Shown in pieces: positions 11,073 through 63,239 of a DNA stretch of 64,000 bases. The stretch lies in sequence record MW233709; one strand, written 5' to 3'. Within the stretch, counting starts at the first letter, position 1. Each line of letters opens with the position of its first letter. The translations under genes were made by a program, and so were the position numbers. Origin of the DNA: Escherichia phage UPEC01. Under the pieces are notes generated by a model. It worked only from the letters and a program-made list of their open reading frames with translations, was not told where the DNA came from and did not search any database.

Positions 11073-13133
11073 ATGTCTGAACAATTAAATGAACTCTTTG
11101 ACAAATATATCGAAGCCTTCGGTTATCCTGTCATTAATATGAACCCAAAATACAAGGTCCCACAGGTTTGGCAATTCGGTGTTCCTGGGACAAATTCTCT
11201 TATGGCTCGTTTGATGCAATTCACGGGCAAAGAAACGGTTAAACAATATAAACGCGGTGATGCGATTGCCGAGGTATTTCTGTTATCCGGGACTTCACAT
11301 GGCCATGCTATTCCTCTGAAGGGTGGTCTAGGTGAAAAACCTCTTGACGCGATTAACCTGATTTTTGTTACAGTCTGGGAAAGCATTAAACTAGGTAAAC
11401 CTGATGTAGTCTTGTTCCGTTTCCCATCCAAAAAGATGAAAGGACAAGACCAAGCTGTTATTCGTATTATGAATCGACTGATTCAAATGAAAACCAGCGG
11501 ACGTTATCATGTTCTTCCGAATGCTTCTGGCCTCGGTAAAAAGAACGCTTATGTAATTATGTACAAAAAGGGTGTTGACCTGCTTTCGGTTGATGGTATG
11601 CCACCAGTCCCTGAGAAATATCAAAAAGTTGAAACTAAAGTTGGCGATGTATTCACCAATAAAGATACAGGCGCGCAAGTCTCCAAACAAGAAATCGCAG
11701 CCGAAGTTCTGATTAACGCAGCAAACAAAAAGACCGACGCAGCTGTTGCCCAGAAAACTAAAATCAGTCGCCGAGCTATTGCACAAGCCCAGTACGCACC
11801 AAGTGATTCCGTGCCAGAAGGTTGGGACGAAATTGATGCAGAAGCTGCTAAGTTTAGTCGACCGGCTACGGCAGAACTTATCGATGATTATGAAGAACTG
11901 GAAATTTTTGTTCGACCTTCCGAAACGAATACTATGGCTCGTATGCGCGCCGCGGATACGGCTATGCGAGCAAATGGTGTTTGGAAAGAAGAAATTCGTG
12001 TTGAAGACTCTGACCCAATTTTTAACCGTATGCATCGTGAACTTAAACGTGCCCCAGTTGGTAGCATGAAGCAGATGCAGATTTTTGCCGAATCATGCGC
12101 AGAGATTCTTAACCTTCGCAAAGCCGCATTTATCGAAAGAAAAATGAATGATGCTCCTCCTAACCTGGATGCAGCCACTTATGCAGCCTCGCTCTGGGAA
12201 AAAGAATACACAAGCGCCATTCGTGTTGCAGTTAAAGACTTTGCCGAAGAAGCATCAGAAAATACTCTTAATTTCACAGCAGGGTATACTGACAACCGTT
12301 TCCATTATGGCCAGCGAGAAGCAATTGCAGATTATTGTGGAGCAAACTATGCCGATATTAATAATTATTTGATGGGCAAATATTATGAAGAAGAAGCTGA
12401 ATTCCTAAATCTAGACAGAGTTGTCGAAACAATTAAGGAATTGGATTCGGCCTTTGAAATTGGACATAAGTTGCCGCCTAATACAACTCTTTGGCGTGGT
12501 CAATATTTAAATGTTCCTACATTTGATAAAATTAAGCAATCGAAATTATTTTATTTCAGGAACTATGTATCAACGTCGTTTAAACCGATTATCTTTGGTG
12601 GTTGGGTGGCGAACGTTGCTATGGCTGCAGTTCATCAGGACTATCGTGATGGGACATCTTTCCAGGCTGATGACGAAATTGTTTTACCAGATATGCCGGA
12701 TGCACGCCGCGACCACGTAATGATGCATGTTGGTTGGAAAATTTCTGGGGCGGACTTAATTAACGTAATTGTTCCTGGGGAATTGTCAAGCAACCCGTCC
12801 GAGCAGGAAGTTATTCTTCCTCGTGGGACTGTAGTTAAGATTACCAAAATTACTGATGCTTCGTATCAAGGAAACGCGAACGTCAAAATGCTGGAAGCTG
12901 ATATCCAGACTACGGACCAACTGGATGAAAATGCAGTTATCTATGATGGCGATGTGTTGATGGAAACTGGTGAGCTTGTCGTTTATCAGGGCGAGGAAAC
13001 AGAAGAGCCAGTAGAATCTGTTGACTTTGCATCGTTTGCATCCTCTGGTGTAACGAAGAAAGTCAATCAAGGTCTTGGTATTCTTGCTAGTTGTATTAAT
13101 TTGGAAGCTATTCCTCCTAAATTCCTTTCGTAG
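11073..13133 (+). CDS. alt: Alt-like mono-ADP-ribosyltransferase (head-packaged)
   Basis: 686 aa; conserved KVETKVGDVFTNKDTGAQV...KISRRAIAQ region as in T4 Alt; C-terminal ART motifs YVSTSF and EQE; late promoter TATAAATA at 11040-11047. Confidence 0.88.
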   Translation: MSEQLNELFDKYIEAFGYPVINMNPKYKVPQVWQFGVPGTNSLMARLMQFTGKETVKQYKRGDAIAEVFLLSGTSHGHAIPLKGGLGEKPLDAINLIFVTVWESIKLGKPDVVLFRFPSKKMKGQDQAVIRIMNRLIQMKTSGRYHVLPNASGLGKKNAYVIMYKKGVDLLSVDGMPPVPEKYQKVETKVGDVFTNKDTGAQVSKQEIAAEVLINAANKKTDAAVAQKTKISRRAIAQAQYAPSDSVPEGWDEIDAEAAKFSRPATAELIDDYEELEIFVRPSETNTMARMRAADTAMRANGVWKEEIRVEDSDPIFNRMHRELKRAPVGSMKQMQIFAESCAEILNLRKAAFIERKMNDAPPNLDAATYAASLWEKEYTSAIRVAVKDFAEEASENTLNFTAGYTDNRFHYGQREAIADYCGANYADINNYLMGKYYEEEAEFLNLDRVVETIKELDSAFEIGHKLPPNTTLWRGQYLNVPTFDKIKQSKLFYFRNYVSTSFKPIIFGGWVANVAMAAVHQDYRDGTSFQADDEIVLPDMPDARRDHVMMHVGWKISGADLINVIVPGELSSNPSEQEVILPRGTVVKITKITDASYQGNANVKMLEADIQTTDQLDENAVIYDGDVLMETGELVVYQGEETEEPVESVDFASFASSGVTKKVNQGLGILASCINLEAIPPKFLS

Positions 13134-36876: not shown

Positions 36877-36934
36877 CTAGGTAATATGATTCATCATCTC
36901 AAGATAATGGCTTCCTAGAATCAACCACAGGAGC

Positions 36935-36985
36935 CCGTAGAACCGATTATGCTTTTATTTATAACACTGTATAATGGTTCTACGG
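36935..36985 (+). promoter_or_regulatory. orphan middle-type promoter cassette inside 10-bp inverted repeat (antisense to genes 18/19)
   Basis: aTGCTTTTA 36949-36957, TATAAT 36970-36975, GGTTCTACGG; enclosed by CCGTAGAACC 36935-36944 / GGTTCTACGG 36976-36985; a - strand TATAAATA (36956-36963) overlaps. Confidence 0.45.
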
Positions 36986-37021
36986 TTTTACTGCTAATTA
37001 ATTCTTTCTAAGCGATGATAA

Positions 37022-57529: not shown

Positions 57530-59272
57530 TTAGCCAATGTCAATCCTCGAACCATCAATAGTATATTGACCAGATGCAATAGAACTCATTGTTGACATTG
57601 TTTCGGACCAATTGCCAGCCACGGTCATATCAACGTTTCCATTAACGGACCATTTGACATTACCATTTACCGTATAATCATGGTTACCTTCGACAAGAGT
57701 TTTTGCGTCACCTTTAACAGTTATTTCAGCATTACCTTCGACCAGAATACTTACATTACCTTTGACGATAATTGTACCGTCACCTTCGATAGTTTTGGTT
57801 TCATTCCCACGAATATGAATGCTTTCGTTTCCATCGGTCTGACGACGAACGTTAGCCATATTATAATAGGTTTCATCACCACCAACGTTGACTTTATTAT
57901 TACCACCAACGTAAGTACTCGAATCGCCCTGGGTCATATAATAACCATCAGCTACTGTCTTCGAAGTCTTACGACCATCTGGTGCAACTTCCTCATAGGA
58001 ACCGGTTGGATGAATCAGTCGATAACGTTCTTGTCCAGGGGTATTATCGAATTCCTGAATATGACCGCCTTCAGTTTGCATTGTCTGCACGTAAGGATAT
58101 TCGCCCTTGTAACTTGATTCTGGCTCTTTAAATAGAATCCTTGTATCTTCTGGGGTCCACGGGTCGGCTGGGTCAGAATTTGCAGGGGCTGCAAAGGTTT
58201 GAATCATCCTATATGAACGCCCTTTAAATGACCTTTCTTTAGGGGCCATAATACCATATGATTCCATATTACCGGTAAGGATAATCATTGATACCCTTGA
58301 TGCACGTCCTTTAGTTTGGTTAAACCATACTGAATTACGAGCTTCCTCAAATGCCTTTTTATAATCACCTACTAACATTGCGCTAAGCATACCACGGAAT
58401 TTAGCCAATCCACCCAATCCCATTTGGAAAGCCATGTTTTCAAGAGCCATTTGTCTCGAACGGTTTTCTTTATTGTAAACTGGACCCACAACACTATGCC
58501 GGCCTATATCGTTTTGGACTTTTTTAAGGTCTTCTTGGAATAATTTAGAGGCCTCGTCCATTGATATTGCACCAGGGTTGCCTTTAACTTCACGGCCTAT
58601 TTGATTAGATAATATTTTGTTTATTTGATTCATATCTCTAATAGGTTGTGGCGTAATTAAGTGTCCTATACCTATAGTAGGATAACCTTCGGTGTCCCAA
58701 TATACTTTCAAACGAAGACCTTCATCACGGTGAAGCATATTTTCAATTGTGAAATTAGGATTATCATCTGGCTTAACTTGACTCAAATCAAGGCCATCGG
58801 GGTTAATACCAAGGTCAAGGTTTGCATCCTGAATTACGTTCGAAGTTGCATCGTAACCGACCTCACCGCCTCGGTTGAGCGCAGCAGCATCATTACCTAC
58901 ATAAAGTGGATATTGTCCTGTGGGGTCAGAGAAGCCTTCGTTGGGATTTGCTTTTTGTCTTGAGGCTGAACCATACGTACCAATAACAAGTCCGTTGAGT
59001 TTCCACTTGTCTAAAAAGTGACCATATACCTGAGTCCCTGGCACCATACCAGTCATTGCAGTTTGAATACCAGAAACTGATGCAGATGATGTTGGCATCA
59101 GTACAGACATCCATGGCAGGTCTTCAGTTCTGATACCTTTTACAGGTCCTTGCGATTTCTCATATGGATGCATACCCCATACACGGACACGGACTCGACC
59201 TTGTTGAAGTGGGTCCATTCGGTCTTCGACAACACCGACGAACCAACTTACATTATCTGACATATTAATCAT
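57530..59272 (-). CDS. 5: baseplate central spike with tail lysozyme (gp5)
   Basis: 580 aa; N-terminal WFVGVVEDRMDPLQQGRVRVRVWGMHP; C-terminal V.G-rich beta-helix repeats; synteny. Confidence 0.9.
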   Translation of the reverse strand: MINMSDNVSWFVGVVEDRMDPLQQGRVRVRVWGMHPYEKSQGPVKGIRTEDLPWMSVLMPTSSASVSGIQTAMTGMVPGTQVYGHFLDKWKLNGLVIGTYGSASRQKANPNEGFSDPTGQYPLYVGNDAAALNRGGEVGYDATSNVIQDANLDLGINPDGLDLSQVKPDDNPNFTIENMLHRDEGLRLKVYWDTEGYPTIGIGHLITPQPIRDMNQINKILSNQIGREVKGNPGAISMDEASKLFQEDLKKVQNDIGRHSVVGPVYNKENRSRQMALENMAFQMGLGGLAKFRGMLSAMLVGDYKKAFEEARNSVWFNQTKGRASRVSMIILTGNMESYGIMAPKERSFKGRSYRMIQTFAAPANSDPADPWTPEDTRILFKEPESSYKGEYPYVQTMQTEGGHIQEFDNTPGQERYRLIHPTGSYEEVAPDGRKTSKTVADGYYMTQGDSSTYVGGNNKVNVGGDETYYNMANVRRQTDGNESIHIRGNETKTIEGDGTIIVKGNVSILVEGNAEITVKGDAKTLVEGNHDYTVNGNVKWSVNGNVDMTVAGNWSETMSTMSSIASGQYTIDGSRIDIG

Positions 59273-59871
59273 AATGACTTCTCCATCTCACGGATTAATG
59301 CCGAAATAAATGATTCGATATCATTAGGGTCGATTATCTTTATTTCTCGTTTATATTCATTTTTGCGAATAGCGTCTTCATAGATATCTACTGCAGCTAA
59401 TGGACCTTCATATTGTGGGTACAATTTATTCTTATCACCTTTATCATACCAGGTGTACGGATTATCAGGATAAGAAACAAGATTCCAGAATTTTTCACCA
59501 TCTTCATTTACATGATAAAGAACCTGATTACCACCTATATTCGAATAGCGTTGAATTGATGCCTGATACGATGATTCTTGTGAACATATCCAACCATAAT
59601 AAGGGTCATAGATATTATTAAGCATAAGGAGAACCCAATAGAGTTGCGTGTTTCCATAGAGCTGGTATGCAAGTTCTTCAGGTCTCGGAGCTCCGGCGAT
59701 GTAATGCGTTTTCGGTGTATAATTAACCGCAACCTTATCAAAATAGGCACGATAGTTTCTGAAGATGTCAGTCATCGGGATGCTTAAGACGTCTTCTTTC
59801 GTTAATGATGCCGAGTTTTTTCTGATTGTTTTAGCATCATAATCAATTGGGTTAAAAAATGAAAAAAGCAT
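59269..59871 (-). CDS. 53: baseplate wedge protein gp53
   Basis: 200 aa from ATG 59871 with strong SD GGAGG; track start at 59901 would overlap the gene 4 late promoter. Confidence 0.8.
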   Translation of the reverse strand: MLFSFFNPIDYDAKTIRKNSASLTKEDVLSIPMTDIFRNYRAYFDKVAVNYTPKTHYIAGAPRPEELAYQLYGNTQLYWVLLMLNNIYDPYYGWICSQESSYQASIQRYSNIGGNQVLYHVNEDGEKFWNLVSYPDNPYTWYDKGDKNKLYPQYEGPLAAVDIYEDAIRKNEYKREIKIIDPNDIESFISALIREMEKSL

Positions 59872-59883
59872 AAAGCCTCCATT

Positions 59884-59891
59884 TATAAATA
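59884..59891 (+). promoter_or_regulatory. late promoter upstream of gene 4
   Basis: TATAAATA 29 nt upstream of gp4 ATG; - strand of the same palindromic ATTTATAAAT reads TATAAATG upstream of gene 53. Confidence 0.6.
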
Positions 59892-59919
59892 AGTATATCA
59901 ATATTTATTAGGAGGCTAT

Positions 59920-60369
59920 ATGGCATACTCCGGGAAATTTAAGCCCACCAATATAGAAAAATATAAGGGCGACTGGAAGAAAATACAATACCGGTCAAGT
60001 TGGGAGGCTTGGCTGATGAGATGGCTCGACAACCATCCGAACGTTGTTCAATGGGGTTCTGAGACTGTGATTATTCCATACTTCTGCAACGCGGAAGGGA
60101 AAAAGCGCAGATATTATATGGATTTCTGGGTTAAGTTCGATACGGGGCAACAGTTCTTTTTCGAAGTTAAACCATTAAAAGAAACAAGACCCCCAACCAA
60201 ACCGGCCAATAATACCACTGCGAGTAAAAAGAGATTTATTAATGAGATGTACACCTGGAGCGTTAACTCTGACAAATGGAAAGCTGCGCAAGCTACCGCG
60301 GATAAGATGGGTATAACGTTCAGGATAATCACTGAAAACTCACTGAAAAAATTAGGATGGAAAGGATGA
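59920..60369 (+). CDS. 4: head completion protein gp4
   Basis: 149 aa; late promoter TATAAATA 59884-59891; order 4-2-3-1 as in T4. Confidence 0.8.
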
Positions 60370-61190
60370 GTATTTTTACATTTATCAATGAATCTGCAGA
60401 TAAACCAGGTCCGAAACCCAGTAAATCAGAACAACAATGGGTTGAAATAGGGGTTGAATTTTATACAGCAAAAGAAAAGGGAATGACCTCGAAGAAGTTT
60501 GCTGAAGAGAAAGGAATCAACTATTCGACCTTTACCAAAAGCATGTCGAGATATCATTCGAGAATTCAGACTGCTTATAAAGTATCCAAGCTCAAAAAGA
60601 AACCCGCCGGTAAACTTACGAAGGCTGAACGTCAGCTGATAATGGTGAATAGCTTTAGAAAGAGCATAAGAGATAAGATTGCTAACGAAGGCGCTGCAAG
60701 CAACACCAAATCTGCCAGATGGTTCGCTGAGACAATTAAGAAATCAGTTCGTGGTCACGTAACGGCTAAACCTCAACCGGGTAAGATTTATGCTTATATC
60801 TATGATGCAAAGCATAAGGATACTCTTCCGTATTGGGACAAATATCCGTTAATCATTTATCTTGGGCTAGGTAAGCACAATTTGATGTATGGTTTGAACT
60901 TGCACTATATTCCACCGAAGGCACGTCAAGAGTTCCTTGAGGAACTTCTTAAGCAATATGCTAATACTCCTACGATTACGAACAAGACTCATCTGAAGAT
61001 TGATTGGTCAAAGGTGAAGGGATTTAAAGGGGCTGACCAGATGATTAAAGCATATATACCTGGCAATATAAAAGGTACTATTACTGAAATCAAGCCCAGC
61101 GACTGGGCAAACGTTGTTATGCTTCCGTTGCAACAATTTATGTCGAAAGGCAAAAGATTCTCTTCCCAGAAAGTATGGAGAAATTCATAA
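60357..61190 (+). CDS. 2: DNA end protector protein gp2
   Basis: 277 aa, basic; synteny between 4 and 3. Confidence 0.8.
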
Positions 61191-61202
61191 TCTATTATCG
61201 GT

Positions 61203-61262
61203 CAGTGTTATTGGTAAGGACAAAAGGTCTAGAACCATTATAACACTGATTGTTTTAAAGCA
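61203..61262 (-). promoter_or_regulatory. orphan middle-type promoter cassette on - strand (antisense to gene 2)
   Basis: - strand reads TGCTTTA-N13-TATAAT-GGTTCTAGACC (+ coords 61262-61226); inverted repeat CAGTGTTAT 61203-61211 / ATAACACTG 61240-61248. Confidence 0.45.
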
Positions 61263-61275
61263 AACAAGGTGCACT

Positions 61276-61875
61276 ATGTCAGGTTTATATAATCAAACTA
61301 ACACGACTAACTTTATATTAGAGGTGAGCGATTCAAACCTCACACAGACCTTTAAACTCAACGTTCAAGACGTTACCCTCCCAGGAGTTCACATTCCTGT
61401 GACGGATGTTCCTGGCGGAACACAAGGTATAAATCGCTCCAGTCTTCCTGGTAGTACAATAGAATTCGACCCGCTGATTGTTAACTTTCTGTGTGACAAA
61501 GACCTAAGAGCGTGGCTTGACATCTATAAATGGATGCTCTCGCTCAACAACTACATCACACACGAATCAAAAGCATGGCATCCGAAGGGTCGTCCCGAAG
61601 CGGTCACGCTTCATATCTTAGATAATAACAAGGACAAAATTGTCATGTCAATCCATTACTATGGTGCATGGCCGTCCGACCTGTCAGAGATTCAGTATTC
61701 ATATAAAGAAGATTCTGACCCGGCTATCAATGCAACAGCAACTTTTAACTTTAAGTCTTTTGCTGTAGAAATTGATGGTATAATAATAGAAGGTAGACCA
61801 CAGATTGATAGTAATGCAGCAATGCAACAGGAAATCAGGTCTAAGTCAATGCATCCATCTATGAGAAACGTATGA
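61276..61875 (+). CDS. 3: tail completion and sheath stabilizer protein gp3
   Basis: 199 aa from ATG 61276 (SD AAGGTG); tail-tube-like; track start 61114 rejected as extension. Confidence 0.7.
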   Translation: MSGLYNQTNTTNFILEVSDSNLTQTFKLNVQDVTLPGVHIPVTDVPGGTQGINRSSLPGSTIEFDPLIVNFLCDKDLRAWLDIYKWMLSLNNYITHESKAWHPKGRPEAVTLHILDNNKDKIVMSIHYYGAWPSDLSEIQYSYKEDSDPAINATATFNFKSFAVEIDGIIIEGRPQIDSNAAMQQEIRSKSMHPSMRNV

Positions 61876-62548
61876 AATTAATTGCGATTGTGGGTAAAAA
61901 ACGCAGTGGTAAAGATACGACTGCTGATTATGTTATTAGTCAAAATGGAACAAAGTGGCAGCTTGCAGGTCCGATTAAAGAAGCGCTTTATAACGCGTGG
62001 ATTCGTCAAGACCTGCCACACAATTTGACCCTGGAAAATTTTGATGGACAAGGTTACGACCGTGAAAAAACCTTAATAATGAACAACACCGAAGCTTATA
62101 TTCTTCTGGTTGATGCTCTTGAATGGTTGAAACAACAATACAATCTTGACCTTCCGAATCCGGATATGGTTCGTAAAATTATTGAATTTCACACACTAAA
62201 TAATGTTGAGCCCTGGACAGTTAGACGTTTCATGCAGACCCTTGGAACTGACATTGTTTGTACAGAGTTCGACAGCATGTTTTGGATTAAAACTTTTGCC
62301 TGCGACTATCTTGACAACCTCTATTCTGGATATAAATATTACGTTGTCCCAGATGTTCGCCAAAAGAACGAACTTGATTCGCTTCGGGCGATGGGTGCTA
62401 CAATAATCTTTGTAGAACGCGATGAAGCAAATCATTCTACTGATACACACATTACGGAAGCTGGACTTCCACCACTAGCTAGTGACATTGTTATTAAAAA
62501 CGATGGCACACTCGAAGAACTTTTTGATAAAATTAATAAGGTAATATA

Positions 62549-62549
<1 letters not shown>
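61872..62549 (+). CDS. 1: deoxynucleoside monophosphate kinase gp1
   Basis: 225 aa; P-loop GKKRSGKDT; YQLAGPIK, VRR.MQ.LGTD, YY.VPD.RQ..E...R.MGAT, DTHITEAGLP match recalled T4 gp1. Confidence 0.9.

Positions 62550-63239
<690 letters not shown>

What the first reader, a model, noticed from the sequence alone, without database searches (positions are those of the whole stretch)
61203..61262. Second orphan promoter cassette on the - strand between genes 2 and 3, flanked by a 9-bp inverted repeat
The - strand reads TGCTTTA-N13-TATAAT-GGTTCTAGACC in the gene 2-gene 3 spacer, although all flanking genes (4, 2, 3, 1) are on the + strand. CAGTGTTAT (61203-61211) and ATAACACTG (61240-61248) form an inverted repeat around it. 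Transcription from here would be antisense to gene 2. Together with the copy at 36935-36985, this indicates the cassette moves independently of coding sequences.
Basis: seen in the sequence. Interest (0 to 1): 0.5.

Follow-up and report, generated by a model that had tools for sequence, protein, structure and literature searches.

The report
Conserved backward-facing T4 middle promoter
The motif is a T4-type "middle" promoter (MotA box plus -10) that faces backwards between two late virion genes; it has stayed at this spot from T4 to an Acinetobacter phage, so it is an old fixed signal of unknown purpose, not a mobile cassette.

Summary
The window is Escherichia virus TH41 (Gaprivervirus, T4-like). 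The sequence is exactly as described. TGCTTTA-N13-TATAAT is not a generic or early promoter. It has the defining architecture of a MotA/AsiA-dependent middle promoter: MotA box GTTTGCTTTA, 13-bp spacer, TGT-TATAAT. A matrix trained on 55 mapped T4 middle promoters scores it 19.8 bits (known median 16.1), and TH41 encodes MotA and AsiA homologs. The same promoter, in the same orientation, abuts the gene 3 ribosome-binding site in T4, RB69, Dhaka-, Winkler-, Karam- and Zedzedvirus. GCT and TATAATGG are invariant, spacing is 12-14, and the spacer sequence is free. Only two of 34 strong sites in TH41 face backwards, and both are orthologs of the two top-scoring sites in the whole T4 genome. Neither T4 site is among the 58 mapped T4 promoters; the RB69 ortholog appears only in a supplementary table of predictions. 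The "mobile cassette" idea fails: the copy at 36970 shares 14 of 40 bases upstream of the -10 and is absent from T4. The inverted repeat is a sense-strand intercistronic hairpin overlapping the promoter. The transcript would be non-coding and antisense to gene 2. Whether it is made, and what it does, is untested.

The parts
61256..61265 (-). MotA box GTTTGCTTTA (core TGCTTTA 61262-61256), centred near -30
   Evidence: Matches (a/t)(a/t)(a/t)TGCTTtA from Hinton 2010. The GCT core is invariant in 9 lineages.
61243..61255 (-). 13-bp promoter spacer; its last 3 bases (TGT, 61245-61243) form an extended -10 TGn
   Evidence: Spacer length is 12-14 in all orthologs while its sequence carries about 0-0.6 bits per column. 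Published rule: 12 +/- 1.
61237..61242 (-). -10 hexamer TATAAT
   Evidence: TATAATGG is invariant in 9 lineages.
61226..61236 (-). Conserved discriminator and start region GGTTCTAGACC. Predicted start is A at 61230, 7 nt after the -10.
   Evidence: The start is placed by analogy with the mapped T4 PuvsY and PnrdC.7 starts at the A of TCTA|A. The cross-genus consensus is GGTT.TA.GTC. The 17-mer TATAATGGTTCTAGACC is identical at the uvsY and rnlB promoters of the window.
61199..61252 (+). Sense-strand intercistronic hairpin: 5' arm 61199-61215, 3' arm 61234-61237 plus 61240-61252, with the perfect 10-mer repeat 61202-61211 / 61240-61249. It overlaps the -10 and spacer of the - strand promoter.
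   Evidence: Fold -22.6 kcal/mol, z = -4.8; repeat finder. A hairpin recurs in the same spacer of Dhaka-like phages, RB69, T4, PG7 and ZZ1, but at shifting positions. One compensatory pair AU/GU/GC was seen; the covariation is not significant.
61188..61199 (+). Conserved motif TAATCTATTATC, starting with the gene 2 stop codon
   Evidence: Identical in the Gapriver- and Dhakavirus groups; T4 has TAATTCTATTATC and RB69 TAATTCTATTCTC. The endonuclease insertions in VR7 and VR25 end exactly at its TAA.
60357..61190 (+). Gene 2 (DNA end protector); its 3' part would be covered by the antisense transcript
   Evidence: ORF list; annotation of VR7 and SP18 at 97-98% identity.
61276..61875 (+). Gene 3 (tail completion / sheath stabiliser); its ribosome-binding site abuts the MotA box
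61094..61108 (-). Candidate stop for the antisense RNA: hairpin GCCCAG-TCG-CTGGGC followed by TTGATTTCA, about +123 to +137
   Evidence: It recurs in SP18, PG7 and L029 but is weak or absent in T4, RB69 and Dhakavirus, and it lies in conserved gp2 codons. Weak evidence only.

Best explanation
Positions 61226-61265 on the - strand are a MotA/AsiA-dependent (middle-mode, sigma-appropriation) promoter of the T4 type. It is fixed at this locus in reverse orientation and is not mobile. Proposed mechanism: within 1-2 minutes of infection the early proteins AsiA and MotA remodel sigma-70 (established for T4). MotA then binds GTTTGCTTTA near -30, sigma region 2 uses TGT-TATAAT, and RNA polymerase starts near A61230 and runs leftward, against genes 2 and 4 (inferred here). 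The product is an untranslated RNA complementary to the gene 2-3 spacer and the 3' end of gene 2. It would be about 135 nt if the weak hairpin/T-tract at 61108-61094 stops it, and longer if not. Its most likely effect is antisense or convergent-transcription control during the middle period. It could keep the late genes 2 and 4 silent, or insulate the gene 3 - gene 1 unit from upstream read-through, until middle promoters shut off. It is one of exactly two reverse-oriented consensus middle promoters in this genome, and both are conserved in T4. The 10-bp inverted repeat is a separate, overlapping feature: a hairpin of the sense-strand late mRNA between genes 2 and 3. Shown here: promoter architecture, matrix score, presence of the activator genes, conservation of boxes, spacing, position and orientation, and absence of a conserved ORF. 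Inferred: that it fires in vivo, when it fires, where the RNA ends and what the RNA does.
For: Architecture: MotA box, 13-bp spacer and -10 fit the published definition. A matrix built from 55 of the 58 mapped T4 middle promoters gives 19.8 bits here (rank 4 in the window, rank 11 in the TH41 genome), against a median of 16.1 for known promoters. TH41 encodes MotA (32% identity, E = 5e-26) and AsiA (52%, E = 2e-22) homologs. Orthologous - strand sites score 22.4 (T4), 19.3-19.8 (VR7, SP18), 18.4 (Dhakavirus), 16.1 (Winklervirus), 16.0 (Karamvirus), 15.4 (Zedzedvirus ZZ1) and 14.5 (RB69). No site exists in the sampled Krisch- and Pseudotevenvirus relatives or in Vibrio phage nt-1, whose reference relatives RB49 and RB43, and nt-1 itself, are reported to lack motA. 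Footprint: invariant GCT and TATAATGG, spacing 12-14, spacer sequence unconstrained. The T4 ortholog ranks 2nd of all positions on both strands of T4, above PuvsY. In TH41, 32 of 34 sites of 15 bits or more face the early/middle direction. The only two that face backwards (this one, and one between the modA and srd homologs) are the orthologs of T4 ranks 2 and 1. The RB69 ortholog was independently predicted as middle promoter Pm:79256 (+) by Nolan et al. 2006, Additional file 4. Precedent: T4 P34i (oriG) is a middle promoter inside and antisense to late gene 34.
Against: There is no transcript evidence. The T4 ortholog (predicted start about 76000, clockwise) is absent from the table of 58 experimentally identified T4 middle promoters. 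From memory, the primary survey (Stoskiene et al. 2007, which I could not obtain) states that some good consensus matches give no transcript in vivo or in vitro. Hinton 2010 reports inactive GATT-box matches. The predicted RNA has no notable structure (z = +1.1), no conserved ORF and no convincingly conserved terminator, so there is no independent sign of a functional RNA. Yersinia phage MHG19 (Tevenvirinae) and Aeromonas phage 31, whose group is reported to have motA, lack the site. One shuffled window reached 20.2 bits.
Confidence: 0.68

Rival explanations
1. Mobile promoter cassette, akin to the PeSL/PmSL promoter-stem-loop cassettes of T4-type phages that recombine and shuffle neighbouring genes.
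For: The 17-mer TATAATGGTTCTAGACC is identical at three sites of the window and 13 of its bases at a fourth. The gene 2-3 spacer is an insertion hotspot: homing endonuclease genes sit there in VR7, VR25, X20, QL01 and others. In T4 the two reverse-oriented sites are 40/48 identical including the spacer, which suggests copying or gene conversion there. Aeromonas phage 31 has an annotated repeat element (31repeatA_3) on the - strand of this spacer. Mot-box versions of PeSLs (PmSLs) have been described.
Against: Position and orientation are conserved across seven genera. Identity to the 36970 copy outside the functional boxes is at background level (14/40), and to the other reverse site of TH41 it covers only 17 nt. 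PeSL/PmSL architecture is not met: the stem-loop is not upstream of the promoter, no SD or start codon follows, and the locus is core late-gene DNA rather than a hyperplastic region.
Confidence: 0.06
2. The conserved block serves the sense (+) strand, as an intercistronic hairpin or processing signal of the late gene 2-3 mRNA. Its resemblance to a - strand promoter is incidental or silent.
For: The sense-strand hairpin is strong (z = -4.8). A hairpin recurs in this spacer in most lineages. One stem pair changes AU to GU to GC, and the GU intermediate works only in the + strand RNA. The adjacent TAATCTATTATC motif is also conserved. The T4 site is not among the mapped promoters.
Against: An RNA stem should show covariation, not two invariant blocks (GCT, TATAATGG) at fixed spacing separated by free sequence. 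The hairpin moves relative to the conserved blocks: it overlaps the -10 in Gapriver- and Dhakavirus, lies wholly downstream in T4, RB69 and PG7, overlaps the Mot box in ZZ1, and is absent in X20 and L033, while the promoter boxes stay put. Covariation is not significant (112 of 500 shuffles). The second reverse site, at modA-srd, has the same promoter boxes in a different context.
Confidence: 0.12
3. Origin-type promoter: like oriF (PuvsY) and oriG (P34i), the transcript stays hybridised as an R-loop and primes leading-strand DNA synthesis towards the gene 4/53 divergence and oriE.
For: oriF and oriG each consist of a middle promoter plus a downstream unwinding element, and P34i is likewise orphan and antisense to a late gene. 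In both T4 and TH41 this site shares its -10 and start region with PuvsY: T4 TATAATG..TCTAAGTCC, TH41 TATAATGGTTCTAGACC. In T4 it lies 1.4 kb from a strand-switch point and 3.3 kb from oriE, whose review states that no middle promoter is nearby. The other reverse site lies about 5 kb from oriA.
Against: No origin has been mapped at genes 2-3. The same start-region motif also occurs at ordinary promoters (PnrdC.7, and the rnlB promoter of TH41). Downstream A+T content and duplex stability are unremarkable, although they are for oriF and oriG too, so that test is uninformative.
Confidence: 0.1
4. Relic of a former divergent transcription unit or of a lost homing-endonuclease insertion: a promoter that once drove - strand genes in this spacer and now has no role.
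For: Krischvirus SSG23 has two small - strand ORFs between genes 2 and 3. Free-standing endonucleases typically bring middle promoters and can create antisense transcripts. The spacer is an endonuclease hotspot.
Against: A functionless relic would not keep invariant boxes and spacing across lineages whose gp3 is only 47-54% identical, while the neighbouring spacer sequence has diverged freely. All endonuclease genes seen here are on the + strand.
Confidence: 0.05

Closest known systems
T4 MotA/AsiA-dependent middle promoters (58 mapped; e.g. PuvsY, PnrdC.7, P1)
   Same: MotA box with GCTT core near -30, 12-13 bp spacing, TATAAT, and optional TGn. The score lies in the upper third of mapped promoters. 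The start region is nearly identical to T4 PnrdC.7 (TATAATGGTTCTAAGCCC) and to the window's own uvsY and rnlB promoters.
   Different: It faces against the direction of all 58 mapped T4 middle promoters and has no gene to express. Activity has not been demonstrated. The T4 ortholog is not in the mapped list.
T4 P34i / oriG (and PuvsY / oriF): middle promoters whose transcript primes replication
   Same: Like P34i, it is an orphan middle promoter antisense to a late structural gene. It shares the -10 and start region with PuvsY in both T4 and TH41.
   Different: No origin activity has been mapped here, no recognisable unwinding element could be distinguished, and P34i lies inside a gene rather than in a spacer.
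PeSL / PmSL promoter-stem-loop cassettes (Arbiol 2010; Comeau 2014)
   Same: A short intergenic module combining a strong promoter (Mot-box type in PmSLs) with a stem-loop, with copies of the promoter part elsewhere in the genome.
   Different: The stem-loop overlaps the -10 and start region instead of lying upstream. No SD or start codon follows. It lies in a core virion-gene block, not a hyperplastic region. It is syntenic across genera, and its flanks are not shared between copies.
RB69 predicted middle promoter Pm:79256 (+) (Nolan et al. 2006, Additional file 4)
   Same: It is the orthologous site in the RB69 gene 2-3 spacer, on the strand opposite to genes 2 and 3, found by a profile search for middle promoters. 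My matrix gives 14.5 bits.
   Different: It appears only as a coordinate in a supplementary table. Its reverse orientation, conservation and possible role were not discussed in the passages I read.

Membership tests
T4-type MotA-dependent middle promoter | MotA box (a/t)(a/t)(a/t)TGCTTtA centred near -30 | tested here: met
   GTTTGCTTTA at 61265-61256 (- strand); 9 of 10 positions fit (the first base is G)..
T4-type MotA-dependent middle promoter | Box placed 12 +/- 1 bp upstream of a sigma-70 -10 element TAtaaT | tested here: met
   13-bp spacer and a perfect TATAAT preceded by TGn. 16 of 55 mapped T4 promoters use 13 bp.
T4-type MotA-dependent middle promoter | Scores like experimentally mapped members under a model built from them | tested here: met
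   19.8 bits against a median of 16.1 for mapped T4 promoters. The T4 ortholog scores 22.4 bits, rank 2 genome-wide.
T4-type MotA-dependent middle promoter | [quoted passage not shown] | tested here: met
   tblastn of T4 MotA and AsiA against the full TH41 record: E = 5e-26 and 2e-22.
T4-type MotA-dependent middle promoter | MotA- and AsiA-dependent transcript starting 6-8 nt after the -10 in infected cells | not testable with these tools
   No RNA data are accessible. T4 differential RNA-seq exists (GSE255091; 22 antisense start sites reported) but the table is not held.
PeSL / PmSL mobile regulatory cassette | [quoted passage not shown] | tested here: not met
   The only significant hairpin spans 61199-61252, i.e. 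the -10, the start and +1 to about +32 of the - strand unit. Nothing comparable lies upstream (61266 onward).
PeSL / PmSL mobile regulatory cassette | Shine-Dalgarno sequence and start codon of a downstream gene at the 3' end of the element | tested here: not met
   There is no conserved ORF or start in the - strand transcript in 7 lineages.
PeSL / PmSL mobile regulatory cassette | Preferential location in hyperplastic regions, next to indels that differ between close relatives | tested here: inconclusive
   The locus is inside the core late-gene block 53-4-2-3-1. However, endonuclease genes are inserted in this very spacer in some relatives, and the element itself is retained unchanged beside them.
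PeSL / PmSL mobile regulatory cassette | Well-conserved sequence shared between copies, sufficient for homologous exchange | tested here: not met
   14/40 identity upstream of the -10 to the 36970 copy; a 17-nt match to the other reverse site of TH41.
T4 R-loop replication origin (oriF / oriG type) | Middle-mode promoter | tested here: met
   By sequence, as in the rows above.
T4 R-loop replication origin (oriF / oriG type) | [quoted passage not shown] | tested here: inconclusive
   A+T over +1 to +60 is 0.67 here and 0.68 in T4, against 0.70 for PuvsY, 0.62 for P34i and a mean of 0.68 for all mapped promoters, so the measure does not discriminate. R-loop formation and replication cannot be tested here.

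The most novel reading that the evidence does not exclude
T4-like phages carry a small, conserved set of two reverse-oriented, PuvsY-like middle promoters (gene 2-3 spacer and modA-srd spacer). These would be functional non-coding units missed by decades of T4 promoter mapping. They could be R-loop primers that supply the clockwise fork near the poorly understood origins oriE and oriA, or dedicated antisense or insulator transcripts that time the switch between gene classes.
Probability: 0.15. Interest if true: 0.65.

Novelty: new member of a known kind. Interest (0 to 1): 0.4.

Why it matters
T4 is the reference system for phage transcription, and its 58 mapped middle promoters all point the same way. 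If the two best consensus matches in the T4 genome really fire in the opposite direction, and have been kept at the same two places across genera, then the middle-mode programme includes conserved non-coding antisense transcription. That could bear on how late genes are kept off, on transcription-replication conflicts, or on origin function near oriE and oriA. For this window specifically, the result replaces a "mobile cassette" reading with an ordinary, well-defined promoter class. It also gives a directly checkable prediction: a MotA-dependent start at 61230 on the - strand, or about 76000 clockwise in T4.

Tried and rejected
1. T4 early promoter or PeSL reading (my first guess from memory). 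Rejected once the published MotA-box definition was read and the PeSL/PmSL criteria were checked.

2. T4 GenBank and RefSeq records carry no promoter annotation for this spacer.

3. The Miller 2003 T4 genome review and Stoskiene 2007 could not be obtained.

4. RNAalifold across Gapriver- and Dhakavirus failed because MAFFT put the shifted stem arms out of register. The pair count within the Dhaka-like group was not significant.

5. Rfam found nothing at E up to 1.

6. The unwinding-element test by A+T content and nearest-neighbour energy was uninformative.

7. Conserved small ORF in the antisense RNA: none. Only fragments that mirror conserved gp2 codons, with different starts and lengths.

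8. Conserved terminator for the antisense RNA: recurrent in some lineages only and confounded by coding constraint.

9. Ortholog of the 36970 copy in T4: absent. The T4 gene 18-19 spacer has late promoters and other hairpins instead.

10. The simple sigma-70 scan did not flag the site at all, because it has no TTGACA-like -35. That is itself consistent with a MotA-type promoter.

11. Supplement of the T4 differential RNA-seq preprint: the start-site table is not held.

Full report
**Identity of the window and locus.**
Bases 60300-62600 are 100% identical to Escherichia virus TH41 (MT446412.1, Gaprivervirus, Tevenvirinae) and 96-98% identical to VR20, VR26, SP18 and VR7. Window position equals record position minus 2868. 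The local genes, named from the annotation of VR7 and SP18 and the ORF list, are:
- gene 5: 57530-59272 (-)
- gene 53: 59269-59901 (-)
- gene 4: 59920-60369 (+)
- gene 2: 60357-61190 (+)
- gene 3: 61276-61875 (+)
- gene 1: 61872-62549 (+)

The finding lies in the 85-bp spacer between genes 2 and 3.

**The observation.**
The - strand reads GTTTGCTTTA (61265-61256), then 13 nt, then TATAAT (61242-61237), then GGTTCTAGACC (61236-61226). The inverted repeat is a perfect 10-mer, 61202-61211 / 61240-61249. The description "flanked by" is not, because the right arm overlaps the -10 and the promoter spacer.

**What class of element it is.**
Hinton's review gives the MotA box as (a/t)(a/t)(a/t)TGCTTtA placed 12 +/- 1 bp upstream of TAtaaT. 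This box replaces the -35 element in T4 middle promoters, which are activated by MotA together with AsiA-remodelled sigma-70. The element fits that definition and lacks a TTGACA-like -35. This is why the simple sigma-70 scan missed it.

I extracted the 58 published T4 middle-promoter start sites from the T4 genome. From the 55 that aligned well I built a matrix covering the 10-nt box, a spacer of 11-14, and 3+6 nt around the -10.
- The TH41 site scores 19.8 bits. The median for mapped T4 promoters is 16.1.
- The window holds 7 sites of 17 bits or more, against 0.2 in shuffles. One of 20 shuffled windows did reach 20.2 bits, so score alone is not proof.
- The full TH41 genome encodes MotA and AsiA homologs.

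**Conservation.**
The T4 gene 2-3 spacer carries the same thing on the same relative strand: TAATGCTTTA-N13-TATAATGGGTCTAAGTCC. I fetched the junction from a spread of T4-like phages using gp3 as an anchor. The reverse-oriented site is present in:

| Lineage | Score (bits) |
|---|---|
| T4 | 22.4 |
| SP18, VR20, VR26 | 19.8 |
| VR7 | 19.3 |
| Dhakavirus | 18.4 |
| Unnamed 72%-gp3 group | 15.9 |
| Winklervirus X20 | 16.1 |
| Karamvirus PG7 | 16.0 |
| Acinetobacter phage ZZ1 (Zedzedvirus) | 15.4 |
| RB69 | 14.5 |

Across nine lineages, GCT of the Mot box and TATAATGG are invariant and the spacing is 12-14, while the intervening sequence carries about 0-0.6 bits per column. A start region GGTT.TA.GTC is also conserved. 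This is the footprint of a promoter, not of an RNA stem.

The site is absent from Krischvirus SSG23, Pseudotevenvirus JC03 and Vibrio phage nt-1. RB49, RB43 and nt-1 are the phages reported to lack motA. It is also absent from Jiaodavirus (which has no spacer), Proteus Pm5461 and Yersinia MHG19. Aeromonas phage 31 lacks it too, although its group is reported to have motA. That phage instead has an annotated - strand repeat with a hairpin and TATATAAT there, so the correlation with motA is imperfect.

**Genome-wide context.**
In T4 the matrix ranks the gene 2-3 site 2nd of all positions on both strands. Rank 1 is another clockwise site at 11885, between srd and modA. PuvsY, the oriF promoter, is rank 3. 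Only 4 sites of 15 bits or more are on the T4 + strand, against 48 on the - strand.

In TH41, 32 of 34 sites of 15 bits or more face the early/middle direction. The two exceptions are this site and one between the modA and srd homologs (record 128364, 17.4 bits). These are exactly the orthologs of the two T4 sites.

Neither T4 site is in the table of 58 mapped promoters. Nolan et al. (2006) list the RB69 ortholog as predicted Pm:79256 (+), and also a Pm:12081 (+), in a supplementary table. In the passages I read there is no comment on them.

**The "cassette" claim.**
The copy at 36970 (+), in the spacer between genes 18 and 19 and also antisense, compares with the finding as follows:
- 14/40 bases shared upstream of the -10
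- 6/6 shared in the -10
- 7/11 shared just after the -10

It scores 12.6 bits and has no counterpart in T4. The two exact 17-mer matches are the ordinary promoters of uvsY (20792) and rnlB (26798), so the shared string marks a promoter subclass rather than copies of a mobile unit.

PeSL/PmSL cassettes are defined by a stem-loop just upstream of the promoter, an SD and start codon downstream, and location in hyperplastic regions. None of these holds here. The one point in favour of copying is in T4, where the two reverse sites are 40/48 identical including the spacer. In TH41 they share only 17 nt.

**The inverted repeat.**
On the sense strand it forms a 17-bp interrupted stem (-22.6 kcal/mol, z = -4.8). 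An RNA starting at the - strand promoter would contain only one arm and is unstructured (z = +1.1).

A sense-strand hairpin recurs in the spacer in Dhaka-like phages (z about -3.3), RB69 (-4.1), ZZ1 (-3.0), PG7 (-2.0) and T4 (-1.6), but at different positions relative to the promoter boxes. It is absent in X20 and L033. Within the Dhaka-like group one pair changes AU to GU to GC, two pairs are broken in some members, and the total is not significant, with 112 of 500 shuffles doing as well.

I read the repeat as an intercistronic feature of the late gene 2-3 mRNA that happens to overlap the promoter. Its function is unknown.

**What the promoter would make.**
The start is predicted at A61230, by analogy with the mapped starts of T4 PuvsY and PnrdC.7. 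The RNA is antisense to the spacer and to gene 2.
- No ORF is conserved.
- No Rfam family matches.
- A hairpin with a T-tract at 61108-61094 could end a roughly 135-nt RNA, but it is conserved in only some lineages and sits in constrained codons.

**Possible roles.**
The T4 precedent for an orphan middle promoter antisense to a late gene is P34i, which primes replication at oriG. oriF uses PuvsY. In both T4 and TH41 the gene 2-3 site shares its -10 and start region with PuvsY.

The T4 site lies 3.3 kb from oriE and points towards it. [quoted passage not shown] I could not test origin function, and the A+T test does not discriminate.

The more conservative reading is antisense or convergent transcription during the middle period. 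Edgell et al. note that endonuclease insertions can introduce middle promoters and antisense transcripts, and this spacer is an endonuclease hotspot. However, the endonuclease genes seen here are all on the + strand, and the promoter is far older than any of them.

**Verdict.**
The element is real. It is a sequence-perfect, deeply conserved, reverse-oriented MotA-type middle promoter, overlapped by a sense-strand hairpin. It is not a mobile cassette. It is a new, unmapped member of a very well known promoter class, with a conserved partner at modA-srd. Its activity and purpose are untested, and existing T4 data could test them directly.

Noticed in passing
L037:11470-11530 (TH41 record about 128340-128400, outside the window); T4 NC_000866 11860-11900 (+): This is a second reverse-oriented consensus middle promoter, between the modA and srd homologs. 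It scores 17.4 bits in TH41 and 23.3 bits in T4, where it is the top score in the whole genome, yet it is not in the list of 58 mapped T4 promoters. In T4 it is 40/48 identical to the gene 2-3 site, and its -10 and start region are identical to PuvsY.
   Followed up: partly
window 36925-37000: A Mot-box-like promoter on the + strand (TGCTTTT-N13-TATAATGGTTCTACGG, 12.6 bits) lies between genes 19 and 18, antisense to both. It is enclosed by a 16-bp hairpin (CCGTAGAACCGATTAT / ATAATGGTTCTACGG) and followed by TTTT. The fold has z = -6.0 on the + strand and -3.8 on the - strand. It has no counterpart in the T4 gene 18-19 spacer.
   Followed up: partly
window 61188-61190 (gene 2 stop); L001:2390-3046: There is a presence/absence polymorphism of a MobB-like HNH homing endonuclease gene inserted exactly at the gene 2 stop codon in VR7, VR25, UPEC07, TH22, TH55 and P479. 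TH41 lacks it. The insert's own TAA replaces the gene 2 TAA and the promoter/hairpin block is left intact. Winklervirus X20 and QL01 also carry endonuclease genes in this spacer.
   Followed up: partly
window 61188-61199: The motif TAATCTATTATC immediately after gene 2 is conserved from Gapriver- and Dhakavirus to T4 and RB69 (TAATTCTATTATC, TAATTCTATTCTC). No function is assigned. On the - strand it reads GATAATAGATTA.
   Followed up: no
window 20792, 26798, 2282; TH41 record 92211; T4 PnrdC.7, PuvsY: A subclass of middle promoters shares a conserved discriminator and start region (TATAATGGTTCTAG/TCTAAG...), although mapped T4 middle promoters as a whole carry under 0.25 bits per position there. 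It includes the oriF promoter (uvsY), rnlB, nrdC.7 and both reverse-oriented sites. The reason for the conservation is unknown.
   Followed up: partly
window 61779-61784 (+): A middle promoter match of 18.0 bits lies inside the 3' end of gene 3, about 90 nt upstream of gene 1. It is the positional counterpart of the mapped T4 promoter P1 (start 75393).
   Followed up: no
L017:489-559 (Aeromonas phage 31) and L018:157-558 (Krischvirus SSG23): In lineages without the Mot-box site, the same spacer still holds - strand features. Aeromonas phage 31 has an annotated repeat (31repeatA_3: hairpin plus TATATAAT), and the RB49-like phage has two small - strand ORFs. Leftward transcription starting next to gene 3 may therefore be a recurrent feature of T4-like genomes.
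   Followed up: no
L012:530-590 (Acinetobacter phage ZZ1): In ZZ1 a strong + strand hairpin (CCATTTGAAAT...GTTTCAAATGG followed by TTATTTTTT), which looks like an intrinsic terminator after gene 2, overlaps the Mot box and spacer of the reverse promoter.
   Followed up: no
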